From: Patescibacteria group bacterium
Lineage (GTDB): Bacteria; Patescibacteriota; Microgenomatia; UBA8517; UBA10165
Direction of reading: 5' to 3'
DNA: 49,593 nt
Assembly: GCA_038062025.1 (NCBI GenBank)
Contig: JBBTXW010000006.1
Span: 1-49,593, forward strand
In this document: positions 14,074 to 16,740 of the stretch, one piece after another
How positions within the stretch are numbered: the first letter of the stretch is position 1
Layout of the letters: each line of letters opens with the position of its first letter
Program-made: the position numbers and the translations under genes
The notes under the pieces: model-generated
Databases searched by the model: none
Seen by the model: the letters and a program-made list of their open reading frames with translations, nothing else
Told to the model about the DNA's origin: nothing

Positions 14074-14752
14074 CTGAATCCTCCACTTCATCCGTCATCA
14101 ACTTATATTGTTTCTTGCTTTTTCCAATCTTTTTTATTGTTAGCAGGGAGCCGGGAGCGCCTGGGACTAAACCTGATAAGAGTATTTCTCCGGTTTTATC
14201 GTCAACTTTTAATACAACAAGATTTTTAATTGTGTTTTGCTCCCCGCCCATTCGGCCGGCCATTCTTTTGCCTTTATAAACTCGTCCGGGGGTTGTTCCC
14301 TGACCGATAGAACCCGGAGCACGATGTCTGTCCGACTGACCGTGGGTTTTGGGGCCTCCTGCAAAGCTGTGTCTTTTTACTCCTCCTGCAAAGCCTTTTC
14401 CTTTTGAAATACCTGTTACATTTACTAAATCTCCAGCTTCCAAGGTTTCGTGGGGGAGAACAGTTGAGCCTGCAGTCATTCCCTCGTCACTTTGAAGCCT
14501 GACTTCTCTCAAAAATTTAGGGGCTTTTTCCTTTAAGCCCCCTTTTTCTAAATGTCCCTTTTGTGGTTTGTTGAGATTTTTAATCTTTCTTTCCCCGAAT
14601 CCGAATTGAGTTGCCCAATATCCGTCGCGGTCTGCATTTTTTGTGGCAACAACAGTATGGGGTCCGGAGCGAACCATAGTAACAGGAAGTCTTACCCCTT
14701 CGGGGGTAAAGACTTGGGACATGTATTGCTTGGTTGCAAGAACTGTATTCAT
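14054..14752 (-). CDS. rplC: 50S ribosomal protein L3
   Basis: VTGISKGKGFAGGVKRHSFAGGPKTHGQSDRHRAPGSIG is L3-like. Confidence 0.94.
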   Translation of the reverse strand: MNTVLATKQYMSQVFTPEGVRLPVTMVRSGPHTVVATKNADRDGYWATQFGFGERKIKNLNKPQKGHLEKGGLKEKAPKFLREVRLQSDEGMTAGSTVLPHETLEAGDLVNVTGISKGKGFAGGVKRHSFAGGPKTHGQSDRHRAPGSIGQGTTPGRVYKGKRMAGRMGGEQNTIKNLVVLKVDDKTGEILLSGLVPGAPGSLLTIKKIGKSKKQYKLMTDEVEDSDGGEEK

Positions 14753-14764
14753 GATGAAAAATAT

Positions 14765-14792
14765 GCAAAAAACAAGGCGCCTACTGGCGCCC
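14765..14792 (-). terminator. Hairpin + U-tract immediately upstream of the rplC start (terminator/attenuator-like)
   Basis: Minus strand: AGGGCGCC-AGUA-GGCGCCUU, then GUUUUUUGCAUAUUUUUCAUC-AUG. Confidence 0.55.
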
Positions 14793-14866
14793 TATTTCCA
14801 AGAGCCCTTCGGCACACAAACATTAAGTTTCAGGAAGAATTTCTCTTTACCTGCACGTTGGAGATG

Positions 14867-14875
14867 AGTATACCA
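14867..14875 (-). promoter_or_regulatory. Candidate extended -10 promoter for the rplC operon (TGGTATACT)
   Basis: The minus strand reads tctGGTATACTcatc. No good -35. Lies about 108 nt upstream of the rplC ATG. Confidence 0.4.
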
Positions 14876-14879
14876 GATT

Positions 14880-15638
14880 TTGAGCTCCACACGCAAGATT
14901 CGTGCAGTAGCGAACTTCTTAACAGGGAGAACCTACTCCGGCATCTCCTGGTTGTATCCAGAAGACACAAAGAAATATTTTTGTGATAAGTTAACAGAAA
15001 TTCTACCTAGATATAAAATGGTGCTTGATGCCTGGGTAATCTGCAATAATCATTACCACTTGCTTTTGGGTGTTTCGGACGGAAAACAAATACCGAAGTT
15101 TACTAAACACCTTCATGGGTCAACGGCACACTACATAAGGCAACACATGCCTTCAATGGTAATCAGTGACCATCAAGTACTTACAAGGGAAATTACTCCT
15201 TGGGACAAAAGGCAAAAGATCAGTTTTCTTAAAAGAACAGGAGAATTTCAGCGCGGATTAAAATCCGCTAATATACAGGGTGTAGTGAAACCTACTGGCG
15301 TAGTAGCGCAATTTATTGCGCCGGATAGTGCAATAGCGAAATTTATTTCGCGCCATCCGGAGATTAATGACCCAGAAGTGCTTGCGCTTCTTTCTGTAAA
15401 AGATCCACCCATTTGGTATCAGTACATGGATCATGTGATAAGAGACGAAGAAGATTACTACAAACACTTAAACTACATCCACCAAAATCCAGTAAAACAC
15501 GCCTATACTGATAAACTGACAGACTACAAATGGAGCAGTATTCATACCTGGATTGAGGATAAAGGTAATGACTTCATATCGGATTGCTTTAGAACATACC
15601 CGATCATAGATTTTGAACCTACAGCAGGCGCAGACTAA
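14880..15638 (+). CDS. HUH Y1-type transposase-like protein (COG1943 / RAYT / IS200-like), possibly degenerate
   Basis: HUH motif in VICNNHYHLLLGV and a Tyr-helix motif LNYIHQNPVKHAY. TTG start is uncertain. An in-frame segment at 15250..15360 consists of REP-like hairpins. Confidence 0.6.
   Translation: MSSTRKIRAVANFLTGRTYSGISWLYPEDTKKYFCDKLTEILPRYKMVLDAWVICNNHYHLLLGVSDGKQIPKFTKHLHGSTAHYIRQHMPSMVISDHQVLTREITPWDKRQKISFLKRTGEFQRGLKSANIQGVVKPTGVVAQFIAPDSAIAKFISRHPEINDPEVLALLSVKDPPIWYQYMDHVIRDEEDYYKHLNYIHQNPVKHAYTDKLTDYKWSSIHTWIEDKGNDFISDCFRTYPIIDFEPTAGAD
15253..15360 (+). repeat. REP-like hairpin module, copy inside the RAYT-like ORF
   Basis: gcggatt-aa-aatccgc+taat (15253..15272), gcgcaatttattgcgc (15306..15321), and gcgaaatttatttcgc (15336..15351). 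The last is nested in ccggat/atccgg (15321..15360). Confidence 0.7.
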
Positions 15639-15684
15639 AGTCTGCTAATGCACTGTTTGCGTGTAATAGCGAAATTCATTTCGC
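15630..15684 (+). repeat. REP-like hairpin module, 3' flank of the RAYT-like ORF
   Basis: gcagact-aa-agtctgc+taat (15630..15649), with the ORF's TAA stop in the loop, followed by gcgaaattcatttcgc (15669..15684). Confidence 0.7.
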
Positions 15685-15691
15685 GTCAAAC

Positions 15692-15743
15692 AAAAAGAGC
15701 CCTCAGCAAATTCATCTCGAAGCGAGACAAAAAGTGAGGGCTC
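15692..15743 (-). terminator. Intrinsic terminator of the G+C-rich orphan
   Basis: Minus strand: GAGCCCUCA...UGAGGGCUC (9-bp outer stem with an inner UCUCG/CGAGA stem), followed by UUUUUGUUUG. Confidence 0.55.
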
Positions 15744-15776
15744 AAGAATTCAAAAAGGGCCGAGTGCTCGAGAGTT

Positions 15777-16589
15777 TTAGGGCTCGACTGGCAACTTCCG
15801 GGAGGCAGCAACGCCAATGTTCGGGCCCGGCCCGTCATCCCAGCCGTCGACAACGACCCTGTACGGATCGCAGCTGCCGACATCGACGCGGAAGCCGTAA
15901 GACGTGGTATCAGAAGTCCGAGCATAGCGCTCGCGGTTCAAGTACGTCCTGGACGTCTTGTAGCAAAAGACGTCTTTTCCAGCCTCTTCAACCGCGGTTG
16001 GTGCCTCGTACTCGACCGGCAGCATTGAAAGCTGTTGGTCCCAGGTTTTGCTCTCAGAGCCAGGCACAATGCTTTTGAGAAGCAGGTACCAGCGAAGCCT
16101 GATGGCGACGTCGGTTGCGAACGGCTGTTTGCGATACCAGGCATCATCCGGAGAGGAGAAGAATTTTGGTTGCTTATTGCTCGGATGGAATATGTTCAGC
16201 TTCATGAGCGATAGCGCCTCGCCTTCGACCTCCGATAGCCCCAAAAACGCGAAGTGCGTGTCCTTGGCCTTCTTGCCCCGAACGAACGGGCAGGGTGAGT
16301 TCAGGACCTCTGCGTTCCATGGGAACTCGGGCACTTCAGGAACAGTGATGCCGTAGTAGGTCTGCCACTCCTCGGCCCCGAAAAAGAACTTGCCCATGAT
16401 ACCCCGCGCTTGGGCCACAGAATCCGGCTGAGCCGAATCTGTGCCGATGATGGCCCCGACCACGAGAGCTAAGCGATCACCGTTTCCGCGGACTTCTCTT
16501 AGGTGCTCTCTAGTTACCCCGCATCTTCCTAAAACTTCGAGGGTTTCATGCCACTCTGAGGCTGGAATCTGAGTTGTAAGGCTCACCAC
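15777..16589 (-). CDS. Hypothetical protein (270 aa), G+C-rich orphan
   Basis: GTG start preceded by AAGGAGAG. Long ORF in a segment where my hand counts give 66/100 and 61/100 G+C (15801-15900, 16201-16300), against 36/100 at 17001-17100. I recognise no motif. Confidence 0.6.
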   Translation of the reverse strand: MVSLTTQIPASEWHETLEVLGRCGVTREHLREVRGNGDRLALVVGAIIGTDSAQPDSVAQARGIMGKFFFGAEEWQTYYGITVPEVPEFPWNAEVLNSPCPFVRGKKAKDTHFAFLGLSEVEGEALSLMKLNIFHPSNKQPKFFSSPDDAWYRKQPFATDVAIRLRWYLLLKSIVPGSESKTWDQQLSMLPVEYEAPTAVEEAGKDVFCYKTSRTYLNRERYARTSDTTSYGFRVDVGSCDPYRVVVDGWDDGPGPNIGVAASRKLPVEP

Positions 16590-16702
16590 TTTAGGCTCTC
16601 CTTAGATTTGGTTTGGGCTCTTTCCGAGTTTGTCGGAACTCTCCCATAGGCTCGAACTCTGTCGAGAACAGGCACACTCTACGTTTTGAATGTACAGTGC
16701 GT

Positions 16703-16732
16703 ATTGTACTATATTATGAGGCTTTTAGTCAA
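16703..16732 (-). promoter_or_regulatory. Candidate promoter of the G+C-rich orphan (TTGACT-18-TACAAT)
   Basis: -35 at 16732..16727 and -10 at 16708..16703. Lies just downstream of the retropepsin-like stop. The ~110-nt leader has hairpins CUCGA/UCGAG and UUCCGA/UCGGAA. Confidence 0.45.
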
Positions 16733-16740
16733 GCTCGCTG

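What the first reader, a model, noticed from the sequence alone, without database searches (positions are those of the whole stretch)
14880..15690. HUH (RAYT/IS200-like) gene carries an in-frame copy of its own flanking hairpin module, with compensatory stem changes
The protein has the HUH motif (NNHYHLLL) and the Tyr-helix (YIHQNPVKH), but about 150 aa separate them. The extra stretch at 15250..15360 (...RGLKSANIQGVVKPTGVVAQFIAPDSAIAKFISRHPE...) is built from three hairpins. These are gcggatt-aa-aatccgc+taat, then gcgcaatttattgcgc, then gcgaaatttatttcgc. The 3' flank repeats the same order: gcagact-aa-agtctgc+taat, with the TAA stop in the loop, then gcgaaattcatttcgc. The two leading hairpins differ at stem positions 3 and 6, and both changes are compensated (G:C to A:T, T:A to C:G). 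The pairing itself is therefore conserved. This looks like a REP/PATE-type element recognised by the encoded Y1 enzyme that has landed inside, or been duplicated into, its own gene without breaking the frame.
Basis: seen in the sequence. Interest (0 to 1): 0.7.

Follow-up and report, generated by a model that had tools for sequence, protein, structure and literature searches.

The report
REP hairpins translated inside their transposase gene
A REP-associated tyrosine transposase (RAYT) gene of a groundwater Patescibacteria genome has copies of its own 23-nt palindromic REP element translated in frame between its two catalytic motifs and supplying its stop codon; this holds across a small clade of such genes, so the enzyme's presumed DNA substrate lies inside its own coding sequence.

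Summary
ORF 14880-15638 (+) is an HUH/Y1 protein of the RAYT type. It holds three perfect 16-nt hairpins in frame. A fourth hairpin carries the TAA stop in its loop, a fifth lies 31 nt downstream, and a sixth lies upstream of tuf. That is six copies against 0.12 expected by chance.

This is not a one-off event. About 50 long-form homologues carry the same modules in the same linker, translated as R-x-L-K-x'-A and A-x-F-I-x'-R, where x and x' covary as base pairing predicts. The element is GTAnTA + GCRNANT-TY-ANTNYGC + G. It usually occurs as inverted doublets that flank the gene. Density is 4.4/kb inside the ORF, 6.8/kb in the flanks and 0.11/kb elsewhere. Codon choice shows constraint at the nucleotide level. 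Copies also sit in frame in other genes (nadE, a CbiA/ferredoxin gene).

The window's own gene has lost its 5' doublet, start codon and conserved HRPPHIH N-terminus, with the breakpoint in a hairpin loop.

Best reading: a REPtron whose REPs repeatedly colonise the one permissive linker of the transposase ORF. Intragenic REPs, and REPs that supply stop codons, are already known. A RAYT clade that carries them in its own ORF appears to be undescribed. I rate it a new variant of a known kind.

The parts
14880..15638 (+). RAYT-like HUH/Y1 ORF (252 aa as listed). Homology to relatives starts at codon F13 (14916). The conserved N-terminus M..HRPPHIHPD is missing.
14901..14918 (+). Remnant of the 5' flanking REP: foot plus left arm only (CGTGCAGTAGCGAAC|TTC), fused directly to codon F13. 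This marks the deletion breakpoint in the hairpin loop.
   Evidence: family D2, 83% to 15660-15677
15048..15068 (+). HUH motif NHYHLLL (H58, H60).
15252..15274 (+). In-frame REP copy 1, A orientation (loop AA): hairpin 15253-15268 plus foot TAATAT. Translated as RGLKSAN.
15300..15322 (+). In-frame REP copy 2, B orientation (loop TT): foot GTAGTA plus hairpin 15306-15321. Translated as VVAQFIA. This position is shared by >=90% of the clade (F145).
15330..15352 (+). In-frame REP copy 3, B orientation: foot GCAATA plus hairpin 15336-15351. Translated as IAKFISR. It is a 30-nt unit absent from the closest relative (P0002/L172) and most similar to the 3' flank copy.
   Evidence: family D1, 89%
15471..15500 (+). 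Tyr helix NYIHQNPVKH (catalytic Y199 at 15474-15476).
15629..15651 (+). REP copy 4, A orientation: hairpin 15630-15645. In reading frame 1 its loop supplies the TAA stop (15636-15638) and its left arm encodes the C-terminal A-D.
15663..15685 (+). REP copy 5, B orientation: foot GTAATA plus hairpin 15669-15684 plus G. With copy 4 it forms the 3' inverted doublet (REPIN-like, 39 nt start to start).
18935..18957 (+). Dispersed REP copy (foot GCAGTA plus GCGCAATTTATTGCGC plus G) in the intergenic region upstream of tuf. A degenerate partner (CTGCTAAAGCAG) lies 30 nt before it.

Best explanation
The locus is a REPtron: a RAYT-type HUH/Y1 gene together with its cognate REP element. The REP is a 23-nt unit, 5'-GTAnTA | GCRNANT-TY-ANTNYGC | G, that is a foot followed by a hairpin with a 7-bp stem and 2-nt loop. 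It normally occurs as inverted doublets on both sides of the gene. In one small clade of mostly Patescibacteria RAYTs, further copies have repeatedly entered the ORF itself. Most sit in the surface linker between the helix that follows the HUH strand and the strand that precedes the Tyr helix. One sits at the very 3' end, where its loop provides the stop codon. Only copies in stop-free frames survive. These are translated as R-x-L-K-x'-A-[NTI]-T in one orientation and V-[VLI]-A-x-F-[ITSN]-x'-R in the other. The hairpins are kept as nucleic-acid elements: pairing and synonymous positions are conserved beyond what the protein needs. I infer the following mechanism. The enzyme binds and cuts these hairpins on single-stranded DNA, as E. 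coli TnpA-REP does, and acts mostly in cis. New copies therefore pile up at and within its own gene, and selection filters for frame and for a permissive site. In the window itself, a deletion with one end in the loop of the 5' hairpin has removed the start codon and about 16 codons, so this particular copy is probably disabled or N-terminally shortened. What is shown: the element's anatomy, its enrichment, its in-frame translation, the nucleotide-level constraint, the clade-wide distribution and the gain/loss pattern. What is inferred: catalysis by this protein, the cis preference, and any function of the in-gene copies.
For: RAYT identity. Pfam Y1_Tnp scores 29.9 bits against a cut-off of 23. 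NCBIfam REP_Tyr_transpos scores 75 bits in two stretches split by the insert. The best PDB sequence match is 4er8 (E. coli TnpA-REP), 1.7e-13, split between chain residues 33-70 and 91-139. 4er8_A is also the top Foldseek hit for the AF2 model.

Element definition. From 110 oriented copies, G-5 is present in 109/110, A-3 in 108, T-1 in 110, A0 in 109 and G+17 in 109.

Pairing, tested without circularity. Of 158 matches to GC....T..A....GC, 114 have all four inner pairs complementary, against 0.25 in shuffles, and there are 18 distinct inner stems. Of 99 sites anchored only on the left foot GTANTAGC, 73 are followed by a perfect hairpin.

Association with the gene. Density is 4.4/kb in the ORF, 6.75/kb within 300 nt and 0.11/kb elsewhere, across 13 loci and 174 kb (p = 6e-26 and 2e-38).

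Clade-wide distribution. The A motif occurs in 45 and the B motif in 42 of 54 long-form proteins. 80 of 87 A instances and 51 of 55 B instances obey the residue pairing predicted from base pairing (E/F, G/S, R/S, K/F; Q..IA, K..IS, N..SS, D..SP). F145 is >=90% conserved.

Nucleotide-level constraint. At sites defined by the protein motif alone, Arg1 is CGC in 20/20 (24/163 elsewhere), Ala6 is GCT in 20/20 (28/136 elsewhere) and Ala1 is GCG in 15/17 (33/136 elsewhere).

Stop codon. It lies in the hairpin loop at an identical offset in 10 of 16 genes.

Gain and loss. Copy number runs from 1 to about 9. Hairpins also occur after the HUH strand (L087, L093) and in a C-terminal insert (L119). Some lineages carry decayed copies (L090, L172, L089). 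Short-form relatives have hairpins of the same geometry in their flanks only.

Mobility into other genes. In-frame copies occur in nadE and in a CbiA/ferredoxin gene. They coincide with alignment gaps against a paralogue and against a solved NadE structure.
Against: No biochemical evidence links this protein to these hairpins. No complete genome was available, so copy number and true dispersal are unknown. Only one dispersed copy lies in 49.6 kb of the window. The central hairpin occupies a homologous position across proteins that are only ~45% identical. This fits long-term retention (a function, or gene conversion from a master copy) better than simple repeated insertion. Perfect palindromes can also be regenerated without selection, by intrastrand template switching. 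The window's own gene lacks the conserved N-terminus, so it may not make an active enzyme.
Confidence: 0.7

Rival explanations
1. The in-gene and stop-codon hairpins are retained because they act as cis elements for the gene itself. For example, the RAYT binds its own coding strand or mRNA and limits its own expression, or the stems slow translation or termination or stabilise the transcript. On this view the copies are domesticated regulators rather than passengers.
For: The central B hairpin sits at a homologous site in >=90% of the clade. It has the identical 16-mer GCGCAATTTATTGCGC in the window, L081, L083 and L172, although these proteins are only 45-70% identical. The stop codon lies in the loop at the same offset in 10 of 16 genes. 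Synonymous positions are fixed. 73 perfect copies stand against only 8 with a single mismatch. Folded as RNA, copies 1 and 3 pair with each other into a long stem. A translation effect of REPs close to stop codons is reported for E. coli (Liang, Rudd and Deutscher 2015, seen here only as a reference; the content is from my own knowledge).
Against: Copy number, orientation and position vary widely (1 to ~9). Several lineages carry decayed copies in otherwise intact genes (L090 AQFTER, L172 HGIKSA). Short-form relatives do without them. Mismatches show no excess of G:T over A:C, so nothing favours pairing at the RNA level. No expression data exist.
Confidence: 0.3
2. The extra segment is simply a helical protein domain of this subfamily, and the palindromes are a by-product of conserved peptide motifs.
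For: Part of the insert (VLTREITPWDKRQ, residues ~95-120) is conserved and not hairpin-coded. AF2 predicts helices through the insert, H107-129 and H147-158. Distant long relatives (P0047, P0051, P0052; loci L094, L096) have a linker of similar length with no hairpins.
Against: The same 16-mers with the same foot occur in the untranslated flanks, in intergenic DNA and in unrelated genes. Codon choice at motif sites is fixed well beyond what the amino acids require. Residue pairs covary according to Watson-Crick rules. Module number varies from 1 to ~9. pLDDT drops to ~49 over residues 131-150.
Confidence: 0.05
3. The palindromes are maintained and spread without the enzyme. Imperfect palindromes are corrected by template switching, and copies are homogenised by gene conversion. 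The RAYT association would then be historical.
For: Nearly all copies are perfect, yet there are 18 different inner stems and several variants within one contig. This is what arm-to-arm copying would produce. Insertions nested inside hairpin loops (L174, L083) and a deletion ending in a loop (the window's 5' end) show that the loops are fragile sites.
Against: Hairpins of this geometry flank relatives of this gene in several phyla, each with its own stem sequence. They are 40-60 times denser at the gene than elsewhere. The invariant unpaired foot GTAnTA cannot be maintained by arm-to-arm correction. It resembles the GTAG tag needed by E. coli TnpA-REP (PMC3733652; role of the tag from my own knowledge of Ton-Hoang 2012 and Messing 2012).
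Confidence: 0.15
4. The whole unit (doublet - gene - doublet) is an autonomous IS200/IS605-like insertion sequence. The internal hairpins would be scars of nested or abortive insertions of the same IS.
For: Close relatives carry the same A..B doublet in direct orientation at both ends. Genomic neighbours differ between relatives. In the window the gene lies within a ~2.6-kb block that separates rpsJ from rplC.
Against: No fragments of the gene accompany the internal hairpins. No identical second copies were seen on any contig. The protein groups with RAYTs rather than IS200 TnpA (75 versus 17 bits).
Confidence: 0.1

Closest known systems
REPtron: E. coli TnpA-REP (RAYT, PDB 4er8) with REP/BIME elements
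   Same: It is an HUH/Y1 protein with the RAYT-type Tyr helix, and 4er8 is the best sequence and fold match. The gene is bordered by short hairpins that carry a conserved unpaired 5' tag (GTAnTA-G here, GTAG in E. coli), and copies are also dispersed in the genome.
   Different: The hairpins here are much shorter (16 nt, no bulge). The inner stems are highly diverse within one contig. The elements lie inside the ORF between the catalytic motifs and supply the stop codon. The protein has a ~90-residue insert relative to 4er8.
REPIN-RAYT systems of Pseudomonas and Enterobacteria (Bertels and Rainey)
   Same: Inverted REP doublets about 36-39 nt apart can fold into a longer hairpin. They cluster around a RAYT gene. 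The short-form relative in a Kapaibacterium contig shows a classical doublet population (L019).
   Different: In the long-form clade there is no single master sequence. Most observed copies lie at or in the gene rather than dispersed. The papers I consulted do not report REPINs inside the RAYT ORF.
Intragenic REPs and Rickettsia palindromic elements (Di Nocera et al. 2013, PMC3733652; Ogata et al. 2000)
   Same: Palindromic repeats are inserted in frame in functional genes and translated. REP termini provide stop codons. REPs overlap the ends of RAYT genes. Here, in-frame copies are found in nadE and in a CbiA/ferredoxin gene.
   Different: The host gene here is the transposase itself, at a conserved site, throughout a clade, with up to ~9 modules. 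The units are 23 nt, against 100-150 bp for RPE-1. The lineage is Patescibacteria.
IS200/IS605 TnpA with subterminal hairpins (IS608, ISDra2)
   Same: The catalytic fold is the same, and recognition is of hairpins on single-stranded DNA (ranks 2-24).
   Different: The IS200 profile score is weak (17 bits). There is no TnpB partner and no evidence of multiple identical copies. The hairpins are repeated and internal rather than one at each end.

Membership tests
RAYT (REP-associated tyrosine transposase, HUH/Y1) | HUH motif on a beta strand | tested here: met
   NNHYHLLL is present; H58 and H60 are invariant in 46 homologues.
RAYT (REP-associated tyrosine transposase, HUH/Y1) | Catalytic Tyr in the RAYT-type helix (D/N)Y(I/V)xxNP(V)KHG | tested here: met
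   NYIHQNPVKH is present and Y199 is invariant. This region aligns to 4er8 residues 91-139.
RAYT (REP-associated tyrosine transposase, HUH/Y1) | Score above the curated profile cut-offs | tested here: inconclusive
   Pfam Y1_Tnp scores 29.9 against a cut-off of 23, so it passes. NCBIfam REP_Tyr_transpos scores 75.1 against a cut-off of 80, just below, with the match split in two by the insert.
RAYT (REP-associated tyrosine transposase, HUH/Y1) | Fold like TnpA-REP | tested here: met
   The AF2 model has mean pLDDT 82. The top Foldseek hit is 4er8_A, E = 8e-6, TM-score 0.62 normalised by target length.
RAYT (REP-associated tyrosine transposase, HUH/Y1) | Gene flanked by its REPs on both sides | tested here: inconclusive
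   Relatives have doublets on both sides. The window has the 3' doublet but only the foot and left arm of the 5' copy.
RAYT (REP-associated tyrosine transposase, HUH/Y1) | Intact full-length protein | tested here: not met
   The conserved N-terminus HRPPHIHPD (H4, R5, P6 and H8 each >=90% conserved) is absent in every frame. Homology starts at F13.
RAYT (REP-associated tyrosine transposase, HUH/Y1) | Single copy per genome, vertical inheritance | not testable with these tools
   Only contigs are available, not complete genomes.
REP / REPIN | Short palindrome with a conserved unpaired tag at its 5' foot (GTAG class) | tested here: met
   The consensus is GTAnTA-GC...GC-G, with the foot positions conserved in 108-110 of 110 copies. 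The tag is a variant (nTAG overlapping the stem), not the literal GTAG.
REP / REPIN | Inverted doublets able to form a larger hairpin | tested here: met
   A..B doublets 36-39 nt apart lie at the gene borders. In the RNA fold, copies 1 and 3 pair with each other.
REP / REPIN | Many dispersed extragenic copies in the genome | tested here: inconclusive
   There is one dispersed copy in the 49.6-kb window. Density away from the gene in related contigs is 0.11/kb. Whole genomes were not available.
REP / REPIN | Binding, cleavage and mobilisation by the associated RAYT | not testable with these tools
   This needs biochemistry or mobilome sequencing.
Rickettsia palindromic elements (RPE) | In-frame insertion in protein-coding genes, translated | tested here: met
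   Seen in the RAYT ORFs, in nadE and in a CbiA/ferredoxin gene.
Rickettsia palindromic elements (RPE) | RPE sequence families, 100-150 bp, Rickettsia lineage | tested here: not met
   The units here are 23 nt, with an unrelated sequence, in Patescibacteria. The resemblance is one of behaviour only.
IS200/IS605 insertion sequence | Best match to the IS200 TnpA profile; multiple identical copies; one hairpin at each end | tested here: not met
   The NCBIfam transpos_IS200 profile scores 17 bits against a cut-off of 55. No second copy was seen on any contig. Copy number per genome is not testable.

The most novel reading that the evidence does not exclude
The long-form linker was built from REP DNA and is now a working part of the system. 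The transposase would read, bind or cut hairpins inside its own coding strand, or bind its own mRNA. This would give self-limiting expression or self-editing of the gene: loop-targeted deletions, insertions or module number changes, like the events seen in the window, L174 and L083. The same elements would also seed new peptide segments in other Patescibacteria proteins. That would be a case of a selfish palindrome giving rise to a protein segment, and of an enzyme whose substrate is its own gene.
Probability: 0.2. Interest if true: 0.85.

Novelty: new variant of a known kind. Interest (0 to 1): 0.62.

Why it matters
What RAYTs and REPs do is still an open question. Here the presumed substrate lies inside the enzyme's own ORF, conserved across a clade, so function can be tested directly. 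Synonymous recoding separates the role of the DNA or RNA hairpin from the role of the peptide. The natural diversity of stems (18 compensated variants sharing one invariant foot and apex) predicts what the enzyme recognises. The finding also gives a clear example of amino-acid covariation that is really nucleic-acid covariation, which is a trap for protein-family and contact-prediction methods. It shows that REP-type elements contribute translated segments to proteins in the small Patescibacteria genomes. I found no paper that reports REP/RAYT systems in that group.

Tried and rejected
1. L026 (Methylococcaceae) first looked like an independent case of in-gene hairpins. Translation showed two tandem genes with a REP cluster between them, so I dropped it.
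2. I searched the 5.8-billion-protein index with a concatenated module peptide to find other host proteins. It returned nothing, because of the word-index limits.
3. The genome-contig scan gave almost only short-form genes, with one long-form locus.
4. I compared near-identical assemblies (window/L171, L089/L092, L081/L082, L083/L084, L085/L086) to catch recent hairpin changes. There were no informative differences.
5. An Rfam scan of 14400-19300 at E<=1 gave no family.
6. I tested for RNA-level pairing through an excess of G:T mismatches and found none.
7. P0211, a 1181-aa hit with 14 matched stretches, is a translated tandem repeat and is not relevant.
8. I tried to align the window's 5' region to relatives in order to recover the N-terminus. 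No frame holds HRPPHIH, and homology ends at 14916.
9. I considered terminator or CRISPR-repeat readings and rejected them: there are no T runs and no regular spacers, and the copies are translated.
Full report
**1. The observation**

ORF 14880..15638 (+) encodes 252 aa. It contains CNNHYHLLL (H58, H60) and NYIHQNPVKH (Y199), 141 residues apart. A scan for perfect hairpins with a 7-bp stem and 2-nt loop that start with GC finds six in the whole 49.6-kb window, against 0.12 in shuffles.
- Three are in frame in the ORF (15253, 15306, 15336).
- One carries the TAA stop in its loop (15630).
- One lies 31 nt after the stop (15669).
- One lies upstream of tuf (18941).

The compensated differences between the two 'leading' hairpins (stem positions 3 and 6) are real. 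As single-stranded DNA, the three in-gene hairpins all form in the minimum-energy fold (z = -3.0).

**2. The protein**

The protein is a RAYT-type HUH/Y1 enzyme.
- Pfam Y1_Tnp passes its cut-off.
- NCBIfam REP_Tyr_transpos scores 75 bits, just under its cut-off of 80, in two stretches split by the insert. The IS200 profile scores only 17 bits.
- A profile of the family finds E. coli TnpA-REP (4er8) as the best solved relative. The match is again split, between chain residues 33-70 and 91-139.
- An AlphaFold model (mean pLDDT 82) has 4er8_A as its top Foldseek hit.

Relative to 4er8, about 90 residues are inserted between the helix after the HUH strand and the strand before the Tyr helix. Confidence falls to about 49 over residues 131-150, where the second hairpin is translated.

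**3. Homologues**

A database search found about 55 long-form relatives (230-340 aa), mostly unnamed metagenomic proteins; the few that carry a name are from Patescibacteria. It also found many short-form relatives (~180 aa) that lack the insert. An exhaustive search of 1.84 billion cluster representatives gave only 11 at E<=1e-30, so the long form is a small clade.

In the alignment, the insert varies in length and is built from recurring peptides:
- RGLKSA, RELKFA, RRLKSA, RRINSA
- AQFIAR, AKFISR, ANFSSR, ANFNSR

I fetched DNA for 13 long-form loci. It shows that each of these peptides is the translation of a perfect 16-nt hairpin. The same hairpins crowd both flanks of every gene.

**4. The element**

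The two 'types' are one element in its two orientations: loop AA/GA is the reverse complement of loop TT/TC. From 110 oriented copies the consensus is 5'-GTAnTA | GCRNANT-TY-ANTNYGC | G. The unpaired foot and the apex are almost invariant, and stem positions 3, 4 and 6 are free.

Two tests that do not presuppose pairing confirm it.
- Of 158 matches to the frame GC....T..A....GC, 114 have all four inner pairs complementary, against 0.25 expected. There are 18 different inner stems.
- Of 99 sites chosen only by the left foot GTANTAGC, 73 are followed by a perfect hairpin and 8 by one with a single mismatch.

The reading-frame rules follow from the sequence.
- Orientation A in frame 1 gives GCN-GAN-TAA/TGA, that is A-[DE]-stop.
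- Orientation A in frame 2 gives R-x-L-K-x'-A.
- Orientation B in frame 1 gives A-x-F-I-x'-R.

**5. Constraint at the nucleotide level**

I used protein sequences only and applied the residue pairs that base pairing predicts: G/S, E/F, R/S, K/F, L-K, I/M/V-N, Q..I-A, K..I-S, N..S-S, H..S-A, D..S-P. These pairs hold for 80 of 87 A-type and 51 of 55 B-type motif instances in 54 proteins.

At sites defined by the peptide motif alone, codon choice is fixed:

| Site | Codon in motif | Same codon elsewhere in these genes |
|---|---|---|
| Arg1 | CGC 20/20 | 24/163 |
| Ala6 | GCT 20/20 | 28/136 |
| Ala1 | GCG 15/17 | 33/136 |

The insert is therefore not just a protein domain that happens to be palindromic.

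**6. Association with the gene**

Across 174 kb of long-form loci, the hairpin density is 4.4/kb in the ORF, 6.75/kb within 300 nt of it and 0.11/kb elsewhere.

Close relatives (L172, L173, L174, L088) share one architecture:
- an A..B doublet ending about 7 nt before the ATG;
- the gene with 1-3 internal copies;
- an A copy whose loop is the stop codon;
- a B copy 36-39 nt further on.

The stop lies in a hairpin loop at the same offset in 10 of 16 genes. In the other long-form genes that carry the element, the left arm remains and a fresh hairpin follows 4-5 nt after the stop.

Short-form relatives from several phyla have hairpins of the same geometry, each with its own stem sequence, in their flanks only. 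One of them, in a Kapaibacterium contig, shows a textbook population of REPIN doublets at about 1 per kb.

**7. Old and new events**

Some features are old. The central B copy sits at a homologous site in >=90% of the clade (F145). It has the identical 16-mer in proteins that are only 45-70% identical.

Other features are recent or variable.
- Module number ranges from 1 to about 9 (P0040).
- Copies also occur after the HUH strand (L087, L093) and in a C-terminal insert (L119).
- Some copies have decayed.
- Foreign sequence is nested inside hairpin loops in L174 and L083.
- In the window, the third in-gene copy is a 30-nt unit absent from the closest relative and 89% identical to the 3' flank copy.

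**8. Other genes**

The same modules occur in frame in a NAD synthetase gene (RELKFATT; REVNFATT..ARSKLR) and in a CbiA/ferredoxin gene (VVAQFTARPQRRGLKSAIT) next to RAYT loci. They fall exactly in alignment gaps against a paralogue and against a solved NadE structure.

**9. The window's gene is damaged**

Homology to relatives stops at TTC (14916). Directly before it lies CGTGCAGTAGCGAAC, which is the foot and left arm of a B copy. The simplest reading is a deletion from the loop of the 5' flanking hairpin to about codon 16, across a TTC microhomology. It removed the right arm, the start codon and the conserved HRPPHIHPD. The rest of the ORF is open, and it is identical in four assemblies from the same aquifer. 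The truncation is therefore recent, or the product is tolerated.

**10. Literature**

Di Nocera et al. 2013 (PMC3733652) document intragenic REPs, REP termini that supply stop codons, and REPs that overlap the ends of RAYT genes. They also recall the in-frame Rickettsia palindromic elements. Searches for RAYT/REPIN papers, for intragenic RAYT-associated REPs, and for REPs in the candidate phyla radiation found no report of REPs embedded between the catalytic motifs of a RAYT, and none of REP/RAYT systems in Patescibacteria. This covers only the library I could search.

**11. Verdict**

The most likely account (0.7) is a REPtron whose REPs accumulate in cis, repeatedly colonise the permissive linker and the 3' end of the transposase ORF, and are kept as hairpins.

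The main live alternative, which overlaps with this account, is that the retained in-gene copies now regulate the gene (0.3). A purely protein-level reading is essentially excluded.

I rate it a new variant of a known kind, with interest 0.62.

Noticed in passing
window 14753-17385: rpsJ (S10, 17386-17694, minus strand) and rplC (L3, 14057-14752, minus strand) are normally adjacent. Here about 2.6 kb separates them. The block holds a DUF5678 gene (17148-17360), an aspartyl-protease-like gene (16744-17148), an orphan 270-aa gene at 56% GC against ~41% around it (15780-16589), and the RAYT ORF. DUF5678 is also the neighbour of the closest relative's RAYT (L172).
   Followed up: partly
window 18905-18957: A solo REP copy, identical over 20 nt to in-gene copy 2, sits about 45 nt upstream of the tuf start codon. 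A degenerate partner hairpin (CTGCTAAAGCAG) lies 30 nt before it. It may lie in the tuf leader or promoter.
   Followed up: no
window 14901-14918: The RAYT ORF's 5' end is a fusion between the left half of a REP hairpin and codon 13. This suggests that hairpin loops are break or rejoin points.
   Followed up: yes
L174 1186-1884 and L083 10001-10912 (insert regions): Two in-gene hairpins have foreign sequence inserted in their loops, with both arms still present and the frame kept. In L174 the insert is 24 nt and is itself a hairpin, giving ANFLPPKEGLLHSR. In L083 the insert is about 48 nt.
   Followed up: partly
L019 (Kapaibacterium contig), whole locus: A short-form relative lies among 19 copies of GCGGAATTTATTCCGC / GCGGAATAAATTCCGC, arranged as inverted doublets about 28-43 nt apart, at roughly one per kb. 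This is a classical REPIN population with the same 16-nt geometry as the window's element.
   Followed up: no
L081 10905-11744 and L085 4127-5053: Housekeeping-type genes next to RAYT loci (NAD synthetase, a CbiA/ferredoxin ATPase) carry translated REP modules. The peptide signatures could be used to screen Patescibacteria proteomes.
   Followed up: partly
L026 205-1247: In a Methylococcaceae contig, two RAYT-like genes lie in tandem, separated by an array of at least seven GCAAGGCCTGCCTTGC-type hairpins at ~39-nt spacing.
   Followed up: partly
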